DNA from: an archaeon
Lineage (GTDB): Archaea; Nanobdellota; Nanobdellia; Woesearchaeales; GW2011-AR9
DNA length: 64,000 bases
Direction: 5' to 3'
Assembly: GCA_018670085.1 (NCBI GenBank)
Contig: JABHRS010000007.1
Coordinates: 272-64,271 of the forward strand
This document shows, one piece after another, positions 52,639-58,880 of the stretch. Both the position numbers and the translations under genes were made by a program. The first letter of the stretch is position 1. Each line of letters begins with the position of its first letter. The notes under the pieces were generated by a model. The model ran no database searches. It was not told the DNA's origin and saw only the letters and a list, made by a program, of their open reading frames with translations.

Positions 52639-52761
52639 TGGCGGGCCGGACGGGATTTGAACCCGCGACCACTTGATATCTTCACAATAAAAAAGATAAA
52701 TCTCTCTTATCATTATACTTGACTAAAAGTCAAGTGCTCTACCAAGCTGAGCTACCAGCCC
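52639..52761 (-). tRNA. tRNA-Lys(TTT), 46-nt intron at 37/38 (52678-52723), CCA encoded
   Basis: GGGCTGG..CTTGA CTTTTA^A TCAAG..GCGGG TTCAAAT CCCGT CCGGCCC G CCA; BHB helix CTTT/GAAG. Confidence 0.93.
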
Positions 52762-52805
52762 GCAATGATTTGGATTTTCTCGCTTCTTTACTTTTTAGTA
52801 AAAAA

Positions 52806-52853
52806 GCACCCTGGCCGGATAACAACAATTCGCTGTGCAAATTCTTGAACCCG
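52806..52853 (-). repeat. Degenerate second copy of the tRNA-Asp T-arm/acceptor 3' end with a hairpin insertion
   Basis: gcaccctggccgg (52806-52818) vs gcgccctggccgg (52888-52900), 12/13; gaacccg at 52847-52853. Confidence 0.65.
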
Positions 52854-52888
52854 TCCAACTCATATCTCCTAACCATAAGATTAGGAAG

Positions 52889-53002
52889 CGCCCTGGCCGG
52901 GGATCGAACCCGGATCGGGGCCTTTCTTTGGAAGAGCTGAAATTTTGATTTTAACACCACTTCCTCGACAGGGCCCCATGATAACCATTACACTACCAAG
53001 GC
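52889..53002 (-). tRNA. tRNA-Asp(GTC), 42-nt intron at 37/38 (52924-52965)
   Basis: GCCTTGG..GGGCC CTGTCG^A GGCCC..CCGGG TTCGATC CCCGG CCAGGGC G. Confidence 0.92.
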
Positions 53003-57138: not shown

Positions 57139-57267
57139 TGGTCCCCCCTCCCGGATTCGAACCGGGGATCTTCCCGTAACTACTGAGCTTTTATCATCAA
57201 AGCCAAACTTTGGCATATCAAAAAGCTGTCTACAGCGGGATGTTCTAAACCGCTGAACTAAGGGGGG
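57139..57267 (-). tRNA. tRNA-Tyr(GTA), 52-nt intron at 37/38 (57178-57229), CCA encoded
   Basis: C1:G72; TCCCG CTGTAG^A CGGGA; CCCGG TTCGAAT CCGGG; A73 then CCA. Confidence 0.94.
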
Positions 57268-57359: not shown

Positions 57360-57818
57360 TTATTCTGAGATCGAAGGTTGATTACGATAATTTTGGTTTA
57401 CAACTCCAACTAAAGTTTTAACATCAGCATAAATTTTGTGGCCACTATGTACTCTACTATCAAAAGAATCCGGCCAAGCAGGAAATGGGTTAAAATCTTC
57501 TTTGAAATAATCCCAATCTTTTTGCAAGCCTGGAAATAATTTATTAGTAATTTTTCCAATAGTTCCATTCAAATACCATGGTGATTCAGGCGGGCTTCTT
57601 GGTTCAAGACATCCACCTTCTCCAGTTTCAAAATCAAACCAGTTACCTAAATTTTGGTCGTAAAAAAATGAAGGTTGTCGATGAAAATGATGGGTTTGGT
57701 TTGTAAGTGATGTACTTCCTGCATTAGCAAGACCACGATCATCGATTCCATTTCCTCTGAATGATAAATATGGCAATGTATCAAAAAAGTTTTCTGTTTG
57801 TGAGAGGTAAAAGTCCAT
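57360..57818 (-). CDS. Hypothetical protein
   Basis: 152-aa ORF. Confidence 0.5.
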   Translation of the reverse strand: MDFYLSQTENFFDTLPYLSFRGNGIDDRGLANAGSTSLTNQTHHFHRQPSFFYDQNLGNWFDFETGEGGCLEPRSPPESPWYLNGTIGKITNKLFPGLQKDWDYFKEDFNPFPAWPDSFDSRVHSGHKIYADVKTLVGVVNQNYRNQPSISE

Positions 57819-57885
57819 TTTTTATTATTTTAATAATTTCTTTTTAAATTTTTGTTTGTTGTAATGCTTTTCAAATAGAAAAATA

Positions 57886-57923
57886 AGCCCCAGCCGAGAG
57901 TTGCCACTAGCCACTGGTCAAGT
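57886..57923 (-). repeat. Degenerate, rearranged mini-copy of tRNA-Thr(TGT)
   Basis: 57886-57903 matches 58735-58752 at 16/18; 57903-57917 matches 58862-58877 (1 gap, 1 mismatch); 57917-57923 matches 58849-58855 at 7/7. Confidence 0.75.
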
Positions 57924-57933
57924 ACGAGTAGGG

Positions 57934-57940
57934 TTTATAT
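57934..57940 (+). promoter_or_regulatory. Putative TATA box of a leaderless LAGLIDADG transcript
   Basis: TTTATAT ending 24 nt before ATG 57964. Confidence 0.5.
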
Positions 57941-57963
57941 CCTGGTTTGTCGACTATAACTGT

Positions 57964-58806
57964 ATGTTGTTGGATAGTTCTTCAATTGAAAAAAGTAGGT
58001 TTGATTTGCGTAAAGAGATTACTTTTCCTGAAGAAATGTCAGTTGAATTAGCTGAAATGATTGGGATTTTAGTTGGGGATGGTCATTTGTCTGTTTTGGA
58101 AAGAATAGATAATAAAGGGAGTAAATTTACTCAATCAACAGTTTTTATTGCTGGAAATTGTAACGAACAGGATTATTTGGAGCATATCCAACGTCTTTTT
58201 TTGAAACTTTTCAATGTTCCTCTCACATATAGAGAAGATAAAAGATCTGATGGAGTATTGCTTGTTTGTTATTCAAAAGGAATTGTGCAATATTTGAGTA
58301 AAGTATGTCAAGTTCCAGTTGGGAGGAAATGTGCTATAGTAAAAGTACCTCAATTAATCTTTGATTCAAAAAGTGTGTTTCAAATGGCTTTTTTAAGAGG
58401 GTTGGCAGATACTGATTTTTCTCTTTGTTTTAAGAATAAAAGTAAAAAAGGTTATGCTTATCCTGTGATAAAGGGGAGTTTTCGAAGTAGATTTTTAATT
58501 CAGGATTTGGAAAGGTTATTCTCTTTTTTTGGGTTTATTCATTGTACTTGTTATGGATTAATAAGAAAAAATAATAAATTTGGATCTGATGTTGTGATGC
58601 ATGCAATCTATCTCAATGGTGTGAAAAATTTGGAACTATGGATTAACATTGTTGGTTTTTCTCAACCTAAATTTCAAAATAAAATCTTGGAATGGAGAGA
58701 AACAGGTCAATCCATACCTAAAAAGAAAAAAAAGAGCCCCGGGCGAGAGTTGAATTCGCGATGTATGGATTCTTCCACACATTCTCGCGACCTCTTGATT
58801 GCTTGA
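57964..58806 (+). CDS. Free-standing two-motif LAGLIDADG homing endonuclease-family protein; C-terminus antisense to tRNA-Thr
   Basis: LAEMIGILVGDG and FLRGLADTDF motifs; no intein splicing ends. Confidence 0.88.
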   Translation: MLLDSSSIEKSRFDLRKEITFPEEMSVELAEMIGILVGDGHLSVLERIDNKGSKFTQSTVFIAGNCNEQDYLEHIQRLFLKLFNVPLTYREDKRSDGVLLVCYSKGIVQYLSKVCQVPVGRKCAIVKVPQLIFDSKSVFQMAFLRGLADTDFSLCFKNKSKKGYAYPVIKGSFRSRFLIQDLERLFSFFGFIHCTCYGLIRKNNKFGSDVVMHAIYLNGVKNLELWINIVGFSQPKFQNKILEWRETGQSIPKKKKKSPGRELNSRCMDSSTHSRDLLIA

Positions 58807-58880
58807 TATGCTTTTGTTTCTTTTGGAAACATACCAGCAAGTGTACAAGTCAAGTGCTATAGCCACTAAGCCACCGGGGC
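58735..58880 (-). tRNA. tRNA-Thr(TGT) with two introns (37/38 at 58800-58843; 53/54 at 58755-58783)
   Basis: Splices to 73 nt: GCCCCGG TG GCTT AGTGGCTA TAGC A CTTGA CTTGTAA TCAAG AGGTC GCGAG TTCAACT CTCGC CCGGGGC T. Confidence 0.9.

What the first reader, a model, noticed from the sequence alone, without database searches (positions are those of the whole stretch)
57886..58880. tRNA-anchored LAGLIDADG element: nuclease reads antisense into tRNA-Thr and is bounded by a broken copy of the same tRNA
Seen: a two-motif LAGLIDADG ORF (57964-58806) lies outside any intein or intron. It has no stop before the tRNA. It translates through the tRNA's T-run terminator (KKKKK), the acceptor and T arm, and the 53/54 intron, and stops at a TGA inside the anticodon intron. 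About 850 bp away, upstream of the ORF, the tRNA 3' end recurs as a direct repeat (16/18). Known: LAGLIDADG enzymes normally home from introns or inteins, and tRNA 3'-end duplications are the usual mark of integrase elements, yet no integrase is present here. Inference: an integrase-free selfish unit that cuts a tRNA gene and spreads with a rebuilt, intron-protected allele, displacing the old 3' end. This could explain how non-canonical tRNA introns are gained in this lineage.
Basis: partly seen in the sequence, partly recalled or inferred. Interest (0 to 1): 0.88.

Follow-up and report, generated by a model that had tools for sequence, protein, structure and literature searches.

The report
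Homing nuclease genes wedged against tRNAs
The window holds one copy of a large family of selfish DNA-cutting enzyme genes in Woesearchaeota, each sitting against a particular tRNA gene and often accompanied by a small unusual intron in it, which suggests one route by which archaeal tRNA genes gain such introns.

Summary
A 280-aa two-motif LAGLIDADG ORF (57964-58806, +) runs 72 nt antisense into a two-intron tRNA-Thr(UGU) gene (58735-58880, -). A 16/18 copy of the tRNA 3' end with its own T-run lies at 57886-57903. No integrase is on this contig.

It is one case of a general pattern. All 9 paralogs in this genome lie within 160 nt of a tRNA, against 16 of 877 other long ORFs. So do 44 of 50 homologs sampled across the order. 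The family occurs in 185 of 301 genomes. Both catalytic Asp residues are kept, and the enzyme clades follow tRNA identity.

A 20-33 nt bulge-helix-bulge intron between tRNA positions 53 and 54 travels with the nuclease. In an unbiased initiator-tRNA sample, 3 of 3 nuclease-adjacent genes have a T-arm-region intron, against 1 of 24 without a nuclease. Congeners show clean empty sites for both tRNA-iMet and tRNA-Thr.

Best reading (0.6): free-standing homing endonucleases aimed at tRNA genes, paired with ORF-less introns that break the target. This resembles phage "collaborative homing". The relic is an insertion scar, and the antisense tail comes from a lost stop codon.

Cleavage is untested. 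Three of four Thr-clade partner tRNAs lack the T-arm intron. Integrase-type scars also occur in this genome.

The parts
57877..57903 (-). Relic of a Thr-type tRNA 3' end (57886-57903: part of the T loop, T-stem 3' strand, acceptor 3' strand, discriminator) followed by its own T-run terminator (57877-57885)
   Evidence: 16/18 to 58735-58752. 0 of 200 shuffles as good. 17/18 plus an identical 9-nt trailer to the genome's tRNA-Thr(CGU) gene on C19. A metagenome contig carries a tRNA-Thr(CGU)-like gene that lays, at a likeness threshold of 85 in 100, on about 27 nt ending at 57903, which covers the relic and part of its trailer.
57904..57940 (+). Promoter of the nuclease gene: motif CCACTAGCCACTGGTCA (57904-57920) and TATA box TTTATAT (57934-57940). 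The ATG lies 53 nt after the start of the core CCACTGGTCA.
   Evidence: The same motif at the same 47-55 nt spacing precedes 8 nuclease paralogs and replication or repair genes in this genome.
57964..58728 (+). Core of the free-standing two-motif LAGLIDADG homing-endonuclease gene (about 255 aa). Motif 1 is ..GILVGDGHL.., motif 2 is ..FLRGLADTDF..
   Evidence: It belongs to the Thr(UGU) clade with L033, L053 and L055 (SH-aLRT 99, best identity 46%).
58729..58806 (+). Read-through tail of about 26 codons: the T-run read as lysines, then the antisense of tRNA nt 146-75, ending at a TGA inside the anticodon intron
   Evidence: Clade relatives end ..CPPGY* 2-5 nt from the tRNA, so the tail follows loss of the usual stop.
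58735..58880 (-). tRNA-Thr(UGU) gene, 146 nt, with two introns
   Evidence: Rfam 40.6 bits. ARAGORN -i. Comparison with congeners.
58800..58843 (-). Canonical 37/38 intron, 44 nt
   Evidence: Boundaries by comparison with tRNA-Thr(UGU) of G001, G002, G004 and G009, which all have a 40-55 nt intron at this place.
58755..58783 (-). Non-canonical intron between positions 53 and 54 (T-stem 5' strand | T loop), 29 nt, with bulge-helix-bulge geometry
   Evidence: Central helix CGCG/CGCG, 3-nt bulges AGA and AAT, inner helix 9 bp, 0 of 500 shuffles as good. Absent from the same gene in four relatives that have no intact nuclease gene.
57360..57818 (-). 152-aa ORF of unknown function, part of the variable insert between tRNA-Thr and tRNA-Tyr
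   Evidence: No Pfam family. Not found in five relatives. In G001 tRNA-Thr and tRNA-Tyr are 17 nt apart.
57139..57267 (-). tRNA-Tyr(GUA) with intron. It marks the far edge of the variable insert.
   Evidence: ARAGORN -i. 95% identical to the tRNA-Tyr of G004.

Best explanation
The ORF is a free-standing, monomeric two-motif LAGLIDADG homing-endonuclease gene. It belongs to a large family in this Woesearchaeota order, and each lineage of the family is tied to one tRNA gene. This copy belongs to the lineage tied to tRNA-Thr(UGU).

Proposed mechanism (steps marked as inferred are not shown):
1. The enzyme cuts the intron-less tRNA gene in or near the T arm, around positions 53/54 (inferred).
2. 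The break is repaired from a nuclease-bearing allele. This copies in the nuclease gene, lodged directly after the tRNA's 3' end, and a short ORF-less bulge-helix-bulge intron at 53/54.
3. The intron splits the presumed target, so the carrier is immune (inferred). The intron is removed from the RNA by the host splicing endonuclease.
4. Nuclease and intron are therefore gained and lost together. This is the archaeal counterpart of phage 'collaborative homing'.

When repair has homology on one side only, the old tRNA 3' end from about the T loop onward, with its terminator, is left beyond the nuclease gene. That is the relic at 57886-57903.

The 72-nt antisense overlap with the tRNA is a by-product of the tight abutment after this copy lost its usual stop codon.

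The gene is driven by a promoter motif shared with DNA replication and repair genes.

Shown: anatomy, family-wide tRNA adjacency, clade-tRNA specificity, conserved catalytic residues, intron-nuclease co-occurrence, empty sites in congeners.

Inferred: cleavage, the position of the cut, immunity through the intron, and the origin of the relic.
For: 1. Adjacency. 9 of 9 paralogs in this genome lie within 160 nt of a tRNA, against 16 of 877 other ORFs of 200 aa or more (Fisher p 2e-15). Of 50 distinct homologs in fetched loci, programs found an adjacent tRNA for 42. Two more were read by eye, giving 44 of 50. 31 are tail-to-tail at 0-54 nt, most of them at 13 nt or less.

2. Nuclease character. 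GDG of motif 1 and D151 of motif 2 are invariant in 20 of 20, and D149 in 19 of 20. The family profile hits I-DmoI at 1.4e-11, PI-PfuI at 2.8e-12 and a V-ATPase intein at 2.6e-19.

3. Patchy distribution. 185 of 301 genomes of the order have a match, with 1 to at least 9 copies each.

4. Specificity. Enzyme clades follow partner tRNA identity: 16 label changes on the tree against a minimum of 22 and a mean of 26.5 in 300 shuffles, with 41 rows labelled. The Thr, Met, Asn and Cys clades have SH-aLRT 96-100.

5. Intron link.
- A 53/54 insertion is present in 16 of 31 tail-to-tail partner tRNAs.
- 15 distinct loci meet the bulge-helix-bulge geometry, with at most 1 of 500 shuffles equal.
- In this genome the 53/54 intron occurs only in two nuclease-adjacent tRNAs. 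The four longest tRNA genes are all nuclease-adjacent (4/10 against 0/20, p 0.008).
- Initiator tRNA found by anticodon-arm pattern: 27 of 30 loci were assessable. 3 of 3 with a nuclease have a T-arm-region intron, against 1 of 24 without (p 0.0014).
- 11 of 12 Met-clade enzymes with an identified tRNA(CAT) partner have the intron.

6. Empty sites in congeners.
- G002 is collinear with this genome on both sides of tRNA-iMet. It lacks exactly the 780-nt nuclease cassette and the 31-nt intron. The last 22 nt of the tRNA are identical.
- G003 and G009 are also intron-less and without a nuclease.
- For tRNA-Thr(UGU), G001 has Thr followed by Tyr after 17 nt.
- G004 keeps only a roughly 45-nt remnant of the nuclease 3' end (tblastn E 3.6e-6).
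- None of G001, G002, G004 or G009 has the T-arm intron.

7. Relics. 7 of 31 tail-to-tail loci have one, each with its own T-run. The left edge is at T54 in 5 of 9 relics examined.

8. No integrase lies near any of the nine loci. A splicing endonuclease gene is present.

9. Precedent. A free-standing endonuclease plus an intron that blocks self-cleavage has been described (passages read in PMC6083498).
Against: - No cleavage, target site or splicing has been measured, and no RNA run was listed.
- The intron is not obligatory. 11 of 31 tail-to-tail partner tRNAs have an intact T arm.
- In the Thr clade, L033 and L055 partner tRNAs have no intron and L053 has only the canonical one.
- tRNA-Cys next to the C18 paralog here is intron-less, while its ortholog's partner in G016 has two introns.
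- Seven of 50 nuclease genes lie head-to-head on the 5' side of the tRNA, and about 7 are in tandem with it. A single 3'-end insertion model does not cover these.
- G004 once had the nuclease (a remnant remains) yet has no T-arm intron.
- The T-arm exons of the working gene are identical in intron-less congeners, so no foreign co-conversion tract is visible.
- Relics bounded in the T loop are also what tyrosine integrases leave (recalled).
- This genome has 4 integrase genes, one right after tRNA-Thr(GGU). It also has 5 tRNAs with 3'-end duplications and no nuclease between tRNA and relic.
- Clade members are at most 46% identical, so no recent transfer is seen. Vertical descent with many losses is not excluded.
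- The genomes are kin, so the Fisher tests overstate.
- This copy has lost its normal C-terminus and may be decaying.
Confidence: 0.6

Rival explanations
1. The unit is the stump of a tRNA-integrating element moved by a tyrosine integrase, supplied in trans or since lost. The working tRNA end and the relic are attL and attR. The nuclease gene is only cargo.
For: - Direct repeats of the tRNA 3' end starting in the T loop are the usual mark of integrase elements (recalled; SSV1 example in passages of PMC3293823).
- The genome has 4 PF00589 genes, one directly after tRNA-Thr(GGU).
- 5 tRNAs here have such repeats with no nuclease between tRNA and relic, some around inserts with inverted ends.
- Sugahara et al. 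proposed intron gain through an intron-bearing attP.
Against: - No integrase lies at any of the 9 loci here.
- Only 7 of 31 tail-to-tail loci have a relic.
- The iMet filled and empty sites differ by a clean replacement with no repeat.
- Relic edges vary: 44, 54, 56, 57 and 61.
- Seven nuclease genes lie head-to-head on the 5' side of tRNAs.
- At least ten different tRNA targets would need many integrase specificities.
- This reading does not explain why the catalytic Asp residues are kept or why the 53/54 intron goes with the nuclease.
Confidence: 0.15
2. An old, vertically inherited and domesticated LAGLIDADG protein with a host role at tRNA genes. Possible roles are DNA repair or replication at tRNA loci, regulation, or a maturase-like helper for oddly placed introns. 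It would not be a mobile element.
For: - Enzyme-tRNA pairs are shared by different GTDB families at only 30-60% identity.
- The promoter motif is shared with Hjc, Hef, UvrB, MgsA, PolB and PolD genes.
- LAGLIDADG maturases and WhiA-type regulators exist (recalled).
Against: - Clean presence and absence between congeners.
- No match at E 1e-10 in 116 of 301 genomes searched, and from 1 to at least 9 copies in those that have it.
- A remnant in G004 and a broken C-terminus here. These are marks of a dispensable, decaying gene.
- Bulge-helix-bulge introns need no maturase (recalled).
Confidence: 0.12
3. tRNA flanks are simply hot spots where any cassette lands. The link with the intron and the relic is coincidence or shared ancestry.
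For: - The Thr-Tyr spacer holds different genes in G000 and G004 and nothing in G001.
- Counts come from related genomes.
Against: - 1.8% of other long ORFs are tRNA-adjacent, against 9/9 and 44/50 for this family.
- Abutment is to the nucleotide. In the iMet lineage the stop codon is the complement of the tRNA's last bases.
- Clade-tRNA specificity.
- Intron co-occurrence across many GTDB families.
Confidence: 0.08

Closest known systems
Collaborative homing: free-standing endonuclease F-CphI beside the intron-containing psbA gene of cyanophage S-PM2 (Zeng, Bonocora and Shub 2009, as described in passages of PMC6083498). Related: T4 mobE with the defunct I-TevIII intron (abstract of PMC2790892 in the listing).
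   Same: A nuclease gene outside the intron, next to an interrupted gene. The intron carries no ORF. Intron and nuclease co-occur. The intron sits at the presumed target.
   Different: Here the enzyme is a LAGLIDADG protein, not Endo VII-like or HNH. The intron is a 20-33 nt protein-spliced bulge-helix-bulge intron, not a group I ribozyme. The host gene is a cellular archaeal tRNA gene, not a phage protein gene. It is a multi-lineage family covering many tRNAs. Cleavage and immunity are untested.
Intron-encoded archaeal LAGLIDADG enzymes such as I-DmoI (rRNA bulge-helix-bulge intron) and intein endonucleases such as PI-PfuI
   Same: Closest solved relatives by sequence profile. Monomeric, with two motifs and both catalytic Asp residues.
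   Different: Those enzymes are encoded inside the intron or intein that they mobilise. These are free-standing, with their own promoter, outside the tRNA.
Phage T4 SegB, a free-standing GIY-YIG endonuclease in the tRNA gene cluster (recalled; abstract of PMC13096335 seen in the listing)
   Same: Free-standing homing endonuclease associated with tRNA genes (intronless homing).
   Different: Different enzyme family, phage rather than cellular genome, no companion intron.
Integrase-mediated disruption of tRNA genes in Caldiarchaeum (Sugahara et al. 2012, PMC3293823, passages read) and the Randau-Soll idea that introns protect att sites (as cited there)
   Same: A mobile element at a tRNA-Thr gene, a tRNA fragment as direct repeat, and intron gain tied to the element and seen as protective.
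   Different: That element encodes a recombinase. Here there is no integrase, and the only gene between the repeats is a LAGLIDADG nuclease.

Membership tests
LAGLIDADG homing endonuclease (two-motif, monomeric) | Two LAGLIDADG motifs, each ending in a catalytic acidic residue | tested here: met
   G38-D39-G40 and D151 are invariant in 20 of 20, and D149 in 19 of 20.
LAGLIDADG homing endonuclease (two-motif, monomeric) | Sequence or fold relationship to solved members | tested here: met
   The family profile against PDB gives I-DmoI 1.4e-11 over both domains, PI-PfuI 2.8e-12 and 2dch 3e-8. Pfam on the single protein is borderline (22.1 against 22.5 bits). No structure was predicted.
LAGLIDADG homing endonuclease (two-motif, monomeric) | Site-specific double-strand cleavage of a long target | not testable with these tools
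   Needs protein and DNA substrates.
LAGLIDADG homing endonuclease (two-motif, monomeric) | Optional, mobile gene: filled and empty sites in relatives | tested here: met
   iMet locus, G000 against G002, G003 and G009. Thr locus, G000 against G001, with a remnant in G004. Found in 185 of 301 genomes.
Collaborative homing (free-standing nuclease plus ORF-less intron) | Nuclease gene adjacent to, not inside, an intron-bearing gene, and the intron has no ORF | tested here: met
Collaborative homing (free-standing nuclease plus ORF-less intron) | Intron and nuclease co-occur across genomes | tested here: met
   iMet: 3/3 against 1/24 in the unbiased sample, and 11/12 in the enzyme-ascertained sample. 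Exceptions are the Thr clade, where 1 of 4 partner tRNAs has the intron.
Collaborative homing (free-standing nuclease plus ORF-less intron) | Nuclease cuts the intron-less allele at the intron insertion site, and the intron blocks self-cleavage | not testable with these tools
   Indirect only: relic edges at T54 in 5 of 9 relics.
Archaeal bulge-helix-bulge intron | Two 3-nt bulges on opposite strands, separated by a 4-bp helix, with splice sites in the bulges | tested here: met
   Window: CGCG/CGCG helix, bulges AGA and AAT, inner helix 9 bp. 15 distinct loci meet the geometry with at most 1 of 500 shuffles equal. That cutting falls after the second bulge base is recalled, not from a call.
Archaeal bulge-helix-bulge intron | Removed from the RNA by the splicing endonuclease | not testable with these tools
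   An EndA gene is present. No RNA run was listed.
Integrase-borne tRNA-integrating element | Tyrosine or serine recombinase gene within the element | tested here: not met
   PF00589 hits lie only on C17, C24, C25 and C14. Serine recombinases were not searched.
Integrase-borne tRNA-integrating element | Direct repeats of the tRNA 3' part at both ends | tested here: met
   16/18 in the window. 7 of 31 loci.

The most novel reading that the evidence does not exclude
Non-canonical tRNA introns in archaea, at least the 53/54 T-arm class, are planted and spread by free-standing LAGLIDADG homing endonucleases that target tRNA genes. Each enzyme lineage is tuned to one tRNA. The intron is the immunity device, and tRNA end-fragments are the debris of one-sided repair. 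The whole family is wired into a DNA replication and repair regulon, so the enzymes would be made when recombination is active. This would be a general DNA-level route of tRNA intron gain.
Probability: 0.4. Interest if true: 0.92.

Novelty: new variant of a known kind. Interest (0 to 1): 0.84.

Why it matters
How archaeal tRNA genes acquire introns at odd positions is unsettled. [quoted passage not shown] The only DNA-level model I found in print invokes an integrase element (PMC3293823).

This family offers a concrete and testable alternative:
- There are hundreds of nuclease genes.
- Each has a known neighbour tRNA, so its target can be guessed.
- Natural filled and empty alleles exist in congeners and can serve directly as substrates.

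It would also extend collaborative homing from phage group I introns to cellular, protein-spliced introns. It would explain some tRNA gene fragments in these small genomes. It would supply a set of natural meganucleases with inferable recognition sites.

Six full-text searches found no paper describing LAGLIDADG genes beside archaeal tRNA genes. Subscription journals and supplementary files were not covered.

Tried and rejected
- ARAGORN in default mode found no tRNA in the window because it ignores introns. Rfam and ARAGORN -i were used instead.
- The D-arm-like look of the sequence beside the relic (CCAGTGGCTAGTGG) first suggested an internally deleted tRNA. It is in fact a genome-wide promoter motif.
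- I considered the motif as a terminal inverted repeat of a transposon, because it flanks the C20 copy on both sides. I dropped this because most copies are single and sit at a fixed distance from start codons.
- The two proteins flanking the window locus gave no match in five relatives, so synteny was traced through the tRNAs instead.
A 3-row alignment gave only 6 loci.
- Rfam at a loose threshold added no tRNA to 8 blank loci. A heuristic of my own (acceptor pairing plus T loop) found 6 of them. L036, L048 and L027 stay blank.
- Contigs of four metagenome runs gave a 'joint' that skips the nuclease (57903 to 58855). It has 29 other letters between the sides and only 27-nt sides. It is a separate tRNA-Thr(CGU)-like gene, not an empty site.
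- No RNA holder was listed, so nothing can be said on expression or splicing.
- The second tRNA-Thr(UGU)-like gene on C11 is not the source of the relic.
- Horizontal against vertical spread was not resolved, because no species tree was built.
- No structure or complex prediction was run.
- Supplementary files of papers were not seen. Those of the Asgard preprint and of PMC3293823 may hold intron or element tables that bear on novelty.

Unpublished genomes: the tallies 185/301 and 160/301 include G144, G206, G268, G231, G155 and G135. Locus L054 (G144) was left out of all counts, and no specific claim rests on these genomes.

Rows dropped before the 50-homolog count: duplicates L029, L031, L032, L035 and L049; identical rows L023 (two) and L024, merged with L003 and L004; non-nuclease loci L021, L022 and L028; and L054.
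Full report
WHAT IS THERE

The window is contig C7 (272-64271) of a 1.48-Mb, 37-contig genome. Close relatives are deposited as Candidatus Woesearchaeota MAGs, and the stretch occurs in marine and seawater metagenomes.

Rfam finds a tRNA at 58735-58880 on the minus strand, at 40.6 bits, with two insertions. ARAGORN with introns calls it Thr(UGU). Reading it against the same gene of four relatives gives a canonical 37/38 intron of 44 nt (58843-58800) and a second insertion of 29 nt between the T-stem 5' strand and the T loop (58783-58755).

On the plus strand an ORF starts at the ATG at 57964 and runs to the TGA at 58804-58806. It passes through the tRNA's T-run, exon 3, the T-arm intron and exon 2, and ends inside the anticodon intron. 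The overlap is 72 nt.

At 57886-57903 the last 18 nt of the tRNA recur at 16 of 18, followed on the tRNA strand by a T-run.

IS THE ORF A LAGLIDADG ENZYME?

Pfam on the single protein is just under threshold. An alignment of 20 family members keeps GDG of motif 1 and the last Asp of motif 2 in all 20. Its profile hits I-DmoI, PI-PfuI and other archaeal intein or intron endonucleases at 1e-8 to 1e-19.

The start at 57964 is supported by promoter geometry. A TATA box ends 24 nt upstream. The motif CCACTGGTCA starts 53 nt upstream, which is the spacing seen at about 20 other genes of the genome.

THE KEY EXTENSION: A tRNA-BOUND FAMILY

- tblastn of the protein against its own genome gave eight further paralogs at 23-33% identity, one of them weak (E 0.09) in that search and confirmed by the family profile at 3.6e-58. 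Every one lies within 160 nt of a tRNA gene.
- Among all other ORFs of 200 aa or more, 16 of 877 do so.
- In a first sample of relatives, all 11 fetched loci had an adjacent tRNA. Seven were found by programs. Four were multi-intron genes read by eye.
- A profile search of 301 genomes of the order found the family in 185, with more than 540 matches.
- Pooling all fetched loci gives 50 distinct homologs after removing duplicates and one unpublished genome. Of these, 42 have a tRNA within 160 nt by ARAGORN or my heuristic, and 44 with the two read by eye.
- The commonest arrangement (31 of 50) is tail-to-tail with the stop codon 0-13 nt from, or inside, the tRNA's 3' end. In the initiator-tRNA lineage the stop codon TAG is the complement of the tRNA's last bases.
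- Seven are head-to-head. About seven are in tandem with the tRNA.

ENZYME LINEAGES FOLLOW tRNA IDENTITY

On a maximum-likelihood tree, partner-tRNA labels change 16 times. Shuffled labels give at least 22 changes and 26.5 on average, with 41 rows labelled.

The window enzyme groups with three others (SH-aLRT 99, at most 46% identity). They come from three other GTDB families, and all are tail-to-tail with tRNA-Thr(UGU). Those three end ..CPPGY* 2-5 nt before the tRNA. The window copy has lost that end and reads on. The antisense tail is therefore incidental.

THE INTRON LINK

An insertion of 20-33 nt at exactly 53/54 is present in 16 of 31 tail-to-tail partner tRNAs of several identities: iMet, Thr, Asn, Arg and others. 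Eleven are intact and four unclear.

In 15 distinct loci, including the window, the insertion has bulge-helix-bulge geometry:
- a 4-bp helix between exon bases -6 to -3 and intron bases -6 to -3;
- 3-nt bulges RGA and AAT;
- an inner helix of 2-11 bp;
- at most 1 of 500 shuffles as good.

In this genome the 53/54 insertion occurs only in the two nuclease-adjacent genes Thr(UGU) and iMet. The four longest tRNA genes are all nuclease-adjacent.

For an unbiased test I located initiator tRNA genes by their anticodon-arm 13-mer. It occurs in 160 of 301 genomes, and 30 loci were fetched. Of these, 27 were assessable.
- The 3 with a nuclease all have an intron in the T arm: two at 53/54 and one at 59/60.
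- Of the 24 without a nuclease, one has the 53/54 intron and 23 do not.
- Eleven of twelve Met-clade enzymes with an identified tRNA(CAT) partner have the intron.
- The iMet introns are visibly alike across families. The single intron without a nuclease (L088) resembles that of L080. That would fit loss of the nuclease with the intron left behind.

EMPTY SITES IN CONGENERS

iMet locus:
- G002, of the same genus, is collinear with this genome on both sides of iMet at 65-88% DNA identity.
- This genome has a 780-nt nuclease cassette in place of 61 nt directly after the tRNA, plus the 31-nt intron 20 nt away.
- The tRNA's last 22 nt are identical.
- G003 and G009 are likewise intron-less and have no nuclease.

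Thr locus of the window:
- G001 has tRNA-Thr and tRNA-Tyr 17 nt apart, followed by Asp and Lys, as in the window.
- G004 has the same Thr and Tyr genes. The Tyr gene is 95% identical and the T-arm exons of the Thr gene are identical. Behind the tRNA it has about 45 nt homologous to the last codons of the nuclease (tblastn E 3.6e-6), then unrelated genes.
- G002's contig ends 39 nt after the tRNA.
- None of the four relatives (G001, G002, G004, G009) has the T-arm intron. All have only the canonical one.

The insert between Thr and Tyr in the window (nuclease, relic and a 152-aa unknown ORF) is therefore variable. The nuclease has been lost at least once in the genus.

THE RELIC

In 7 of 31 tail-to-tail loci, the tRNA's last 16 nt recur with at most 3 mismatches within 400 nt upstream of the nuclease start. 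None of 200 shuffles matched as well, and each copy has its own T-run. L053 has a more divergent one.

The left edge of homology is at T54 in five of nine relics. It is at 56 in the window, at 57 and 61 in two others, and near 44 in L050. L050 keeps a whole intron-less T arm.

The window relic with its trailer matches the 3' end of this genome's tRNA-Thr(CGU) gene at 17/18 plus 9/9. A tRNA-Thr(CGU)-like gene in metagenome contigs lays on the relic and part of its trailer, about 27 nt ending at 57903, at a likeness threshold of 85 in 100. It is a real Thr-type gene end, not chance.

I read relics as the right-hand side of a break in the T arm that was rejoined without homology after the left side copied the intron, tRNA end and nuclease from a donor. 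This is inference.

The same picture can come from integrase att sites, and such events do occur here. There are four integrase genes, one directly after tRNA-Thr(GGU). Five tRNAs have 3'-end repeats and no nuclease between tRNA and relic.

Points against integrases as the general cause:
- None of the nine nuclease loci has an integrase.
- Relics are a minority.
- The iMet insertion is repeat-free.
- The relic edges vary.
- Some enzymes sit on the 5' side of the tRNA.

WEAK POINTS

- Nothing biochemical is known.
- The intron is absent from 11 of 31 partner tRNAs, and from three of four in the window's own clade. For those, insertion of the nuclease gene at the tRNA's very end may itself break the site. 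Alternatively the enzymes may be inactive, or the target may lie elsewhere.
- Identities between clade members are low, so recent transfer is not shown.
- The genomes compared are kin.
- This copy's C-terminus is damaged.

COMPARISON WITH WHAT IS KNOWN

The closest system is collaborative homing. In cyanophage S-PM2 the free-standing F-CphI cuts intron-less psbA, and a group I intron blocks self-cleavage (passages of PMC6083498).

Archaeal LAGLIDADG enzymes are known from inside rRNA bulge-helix-bulge and group I introns and from inteins (passages). They have not been described as free-standing genes at tRNAs in any paper I could find.

An integrase-based model of tRNA-Thr disruption and intron gain exists. 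A recent preprint leaves the route of tRNA intron gain open.

I therefore rate this a new variant of a known kind, with high interest.

Noticed in passing
window 57904-57940; genome-wide (for example G000 C19:11037, C19:54050, C20:5384, C24:12021, C33:89887, C37:17640): The motif CCACT(NN)CCACTGG(T/A)CA, about 13 nt before a TATA box and 47-55 nt before the start codon, occurs at 37 sites in 1.48 Mb where about 3 are expected. It precedes Hjc, a Hef-like ERCC4 helicase, UvrB, MgsA, PolB, PolD DP2, a PD-(D/E)XK nuclease, KilA-N, two Bro-N, RhuM and VapB genes, plus 8 nuclease paralogs. It looks like a replication and repair regulon. The motif is also seen upstream of homologs in other genomes.
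   Followed up: partly
G000 C11:46493-46720, C14:34696-36100, C14:80100-80374, C33:28798-29080, C35:27320-27490: Five tRNAs (Gly-gcc, Arg-gcg with two copies, Ala-tgc, Gly-tcc, Leu-gag) have a direct copy of their last 14-18 nt plus a T-run 70-1400 nt downstream, with no nuclease between tRNA and relic. The Arg-gcg inserts carry ORFs and inverted ends. They may be old integration or excision scars.
   Followed up: partly
G000 C24:29505-30620: A tyrosine-integrase gene (PF00589, 73 bits) starts about 550 nt after tRNA-Thr(GGU). This is probably a classical tRNA-integrated element.
   Followed up: no
G000 C11:16743-16816 (L021): A second, intron-less tRNA-Thr(UGU)-like gene with an encoded CCA and an imperfect acceptor stem. 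It is unlike the window gene and unlike the relic, and may be of foreign origin.
   Followed up: no
G000 C20:80606-81620 (L020): The weakest paralog lies downstream of a 160-nt multi-intron tRNA on the same strand. It is followed by an inverted copy of the promoter motif and a 14-nt exact copy of that tRNA's 3' end plus CCA and a T-run.
   Followed up: partly
L027 (GenBank CAYYWW010000021.1, 8528-14130): Three LAGLIDADG paralogs in tandem with no tRNA detected nearby.
   Followed up: no
whole genome G000: Standard tRNA finders miss many genes here. Rfam listed 25 and ARAGORN -i listed 28, and several multi-intron tRNAs (iMet on C32, C20x, and those in L003, L008, L012) were found only by eye or by heuristic. 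tRNA counts in such genomes are therefore underestimates.
   Followed up: partly
L108 (G004 C20:11770-12980): Between tRNA-Thr and tRNA-Tyr, G004 carries two small ORFs that look by eye like a nucleotidyltransferase/HEPN pair where G000 has the nuclease. The family assignment is recalled and was not tested.
   Followed up: no
window 52642-53002: tRNA-Lys(UUU) and tRNA-Asp(GUC), both with introns, lie in the same order (Thr, Tyr, Asp, Lys) as in G001. This is a conserved tRNA cluster with variable spacers.
   Followed up: partly
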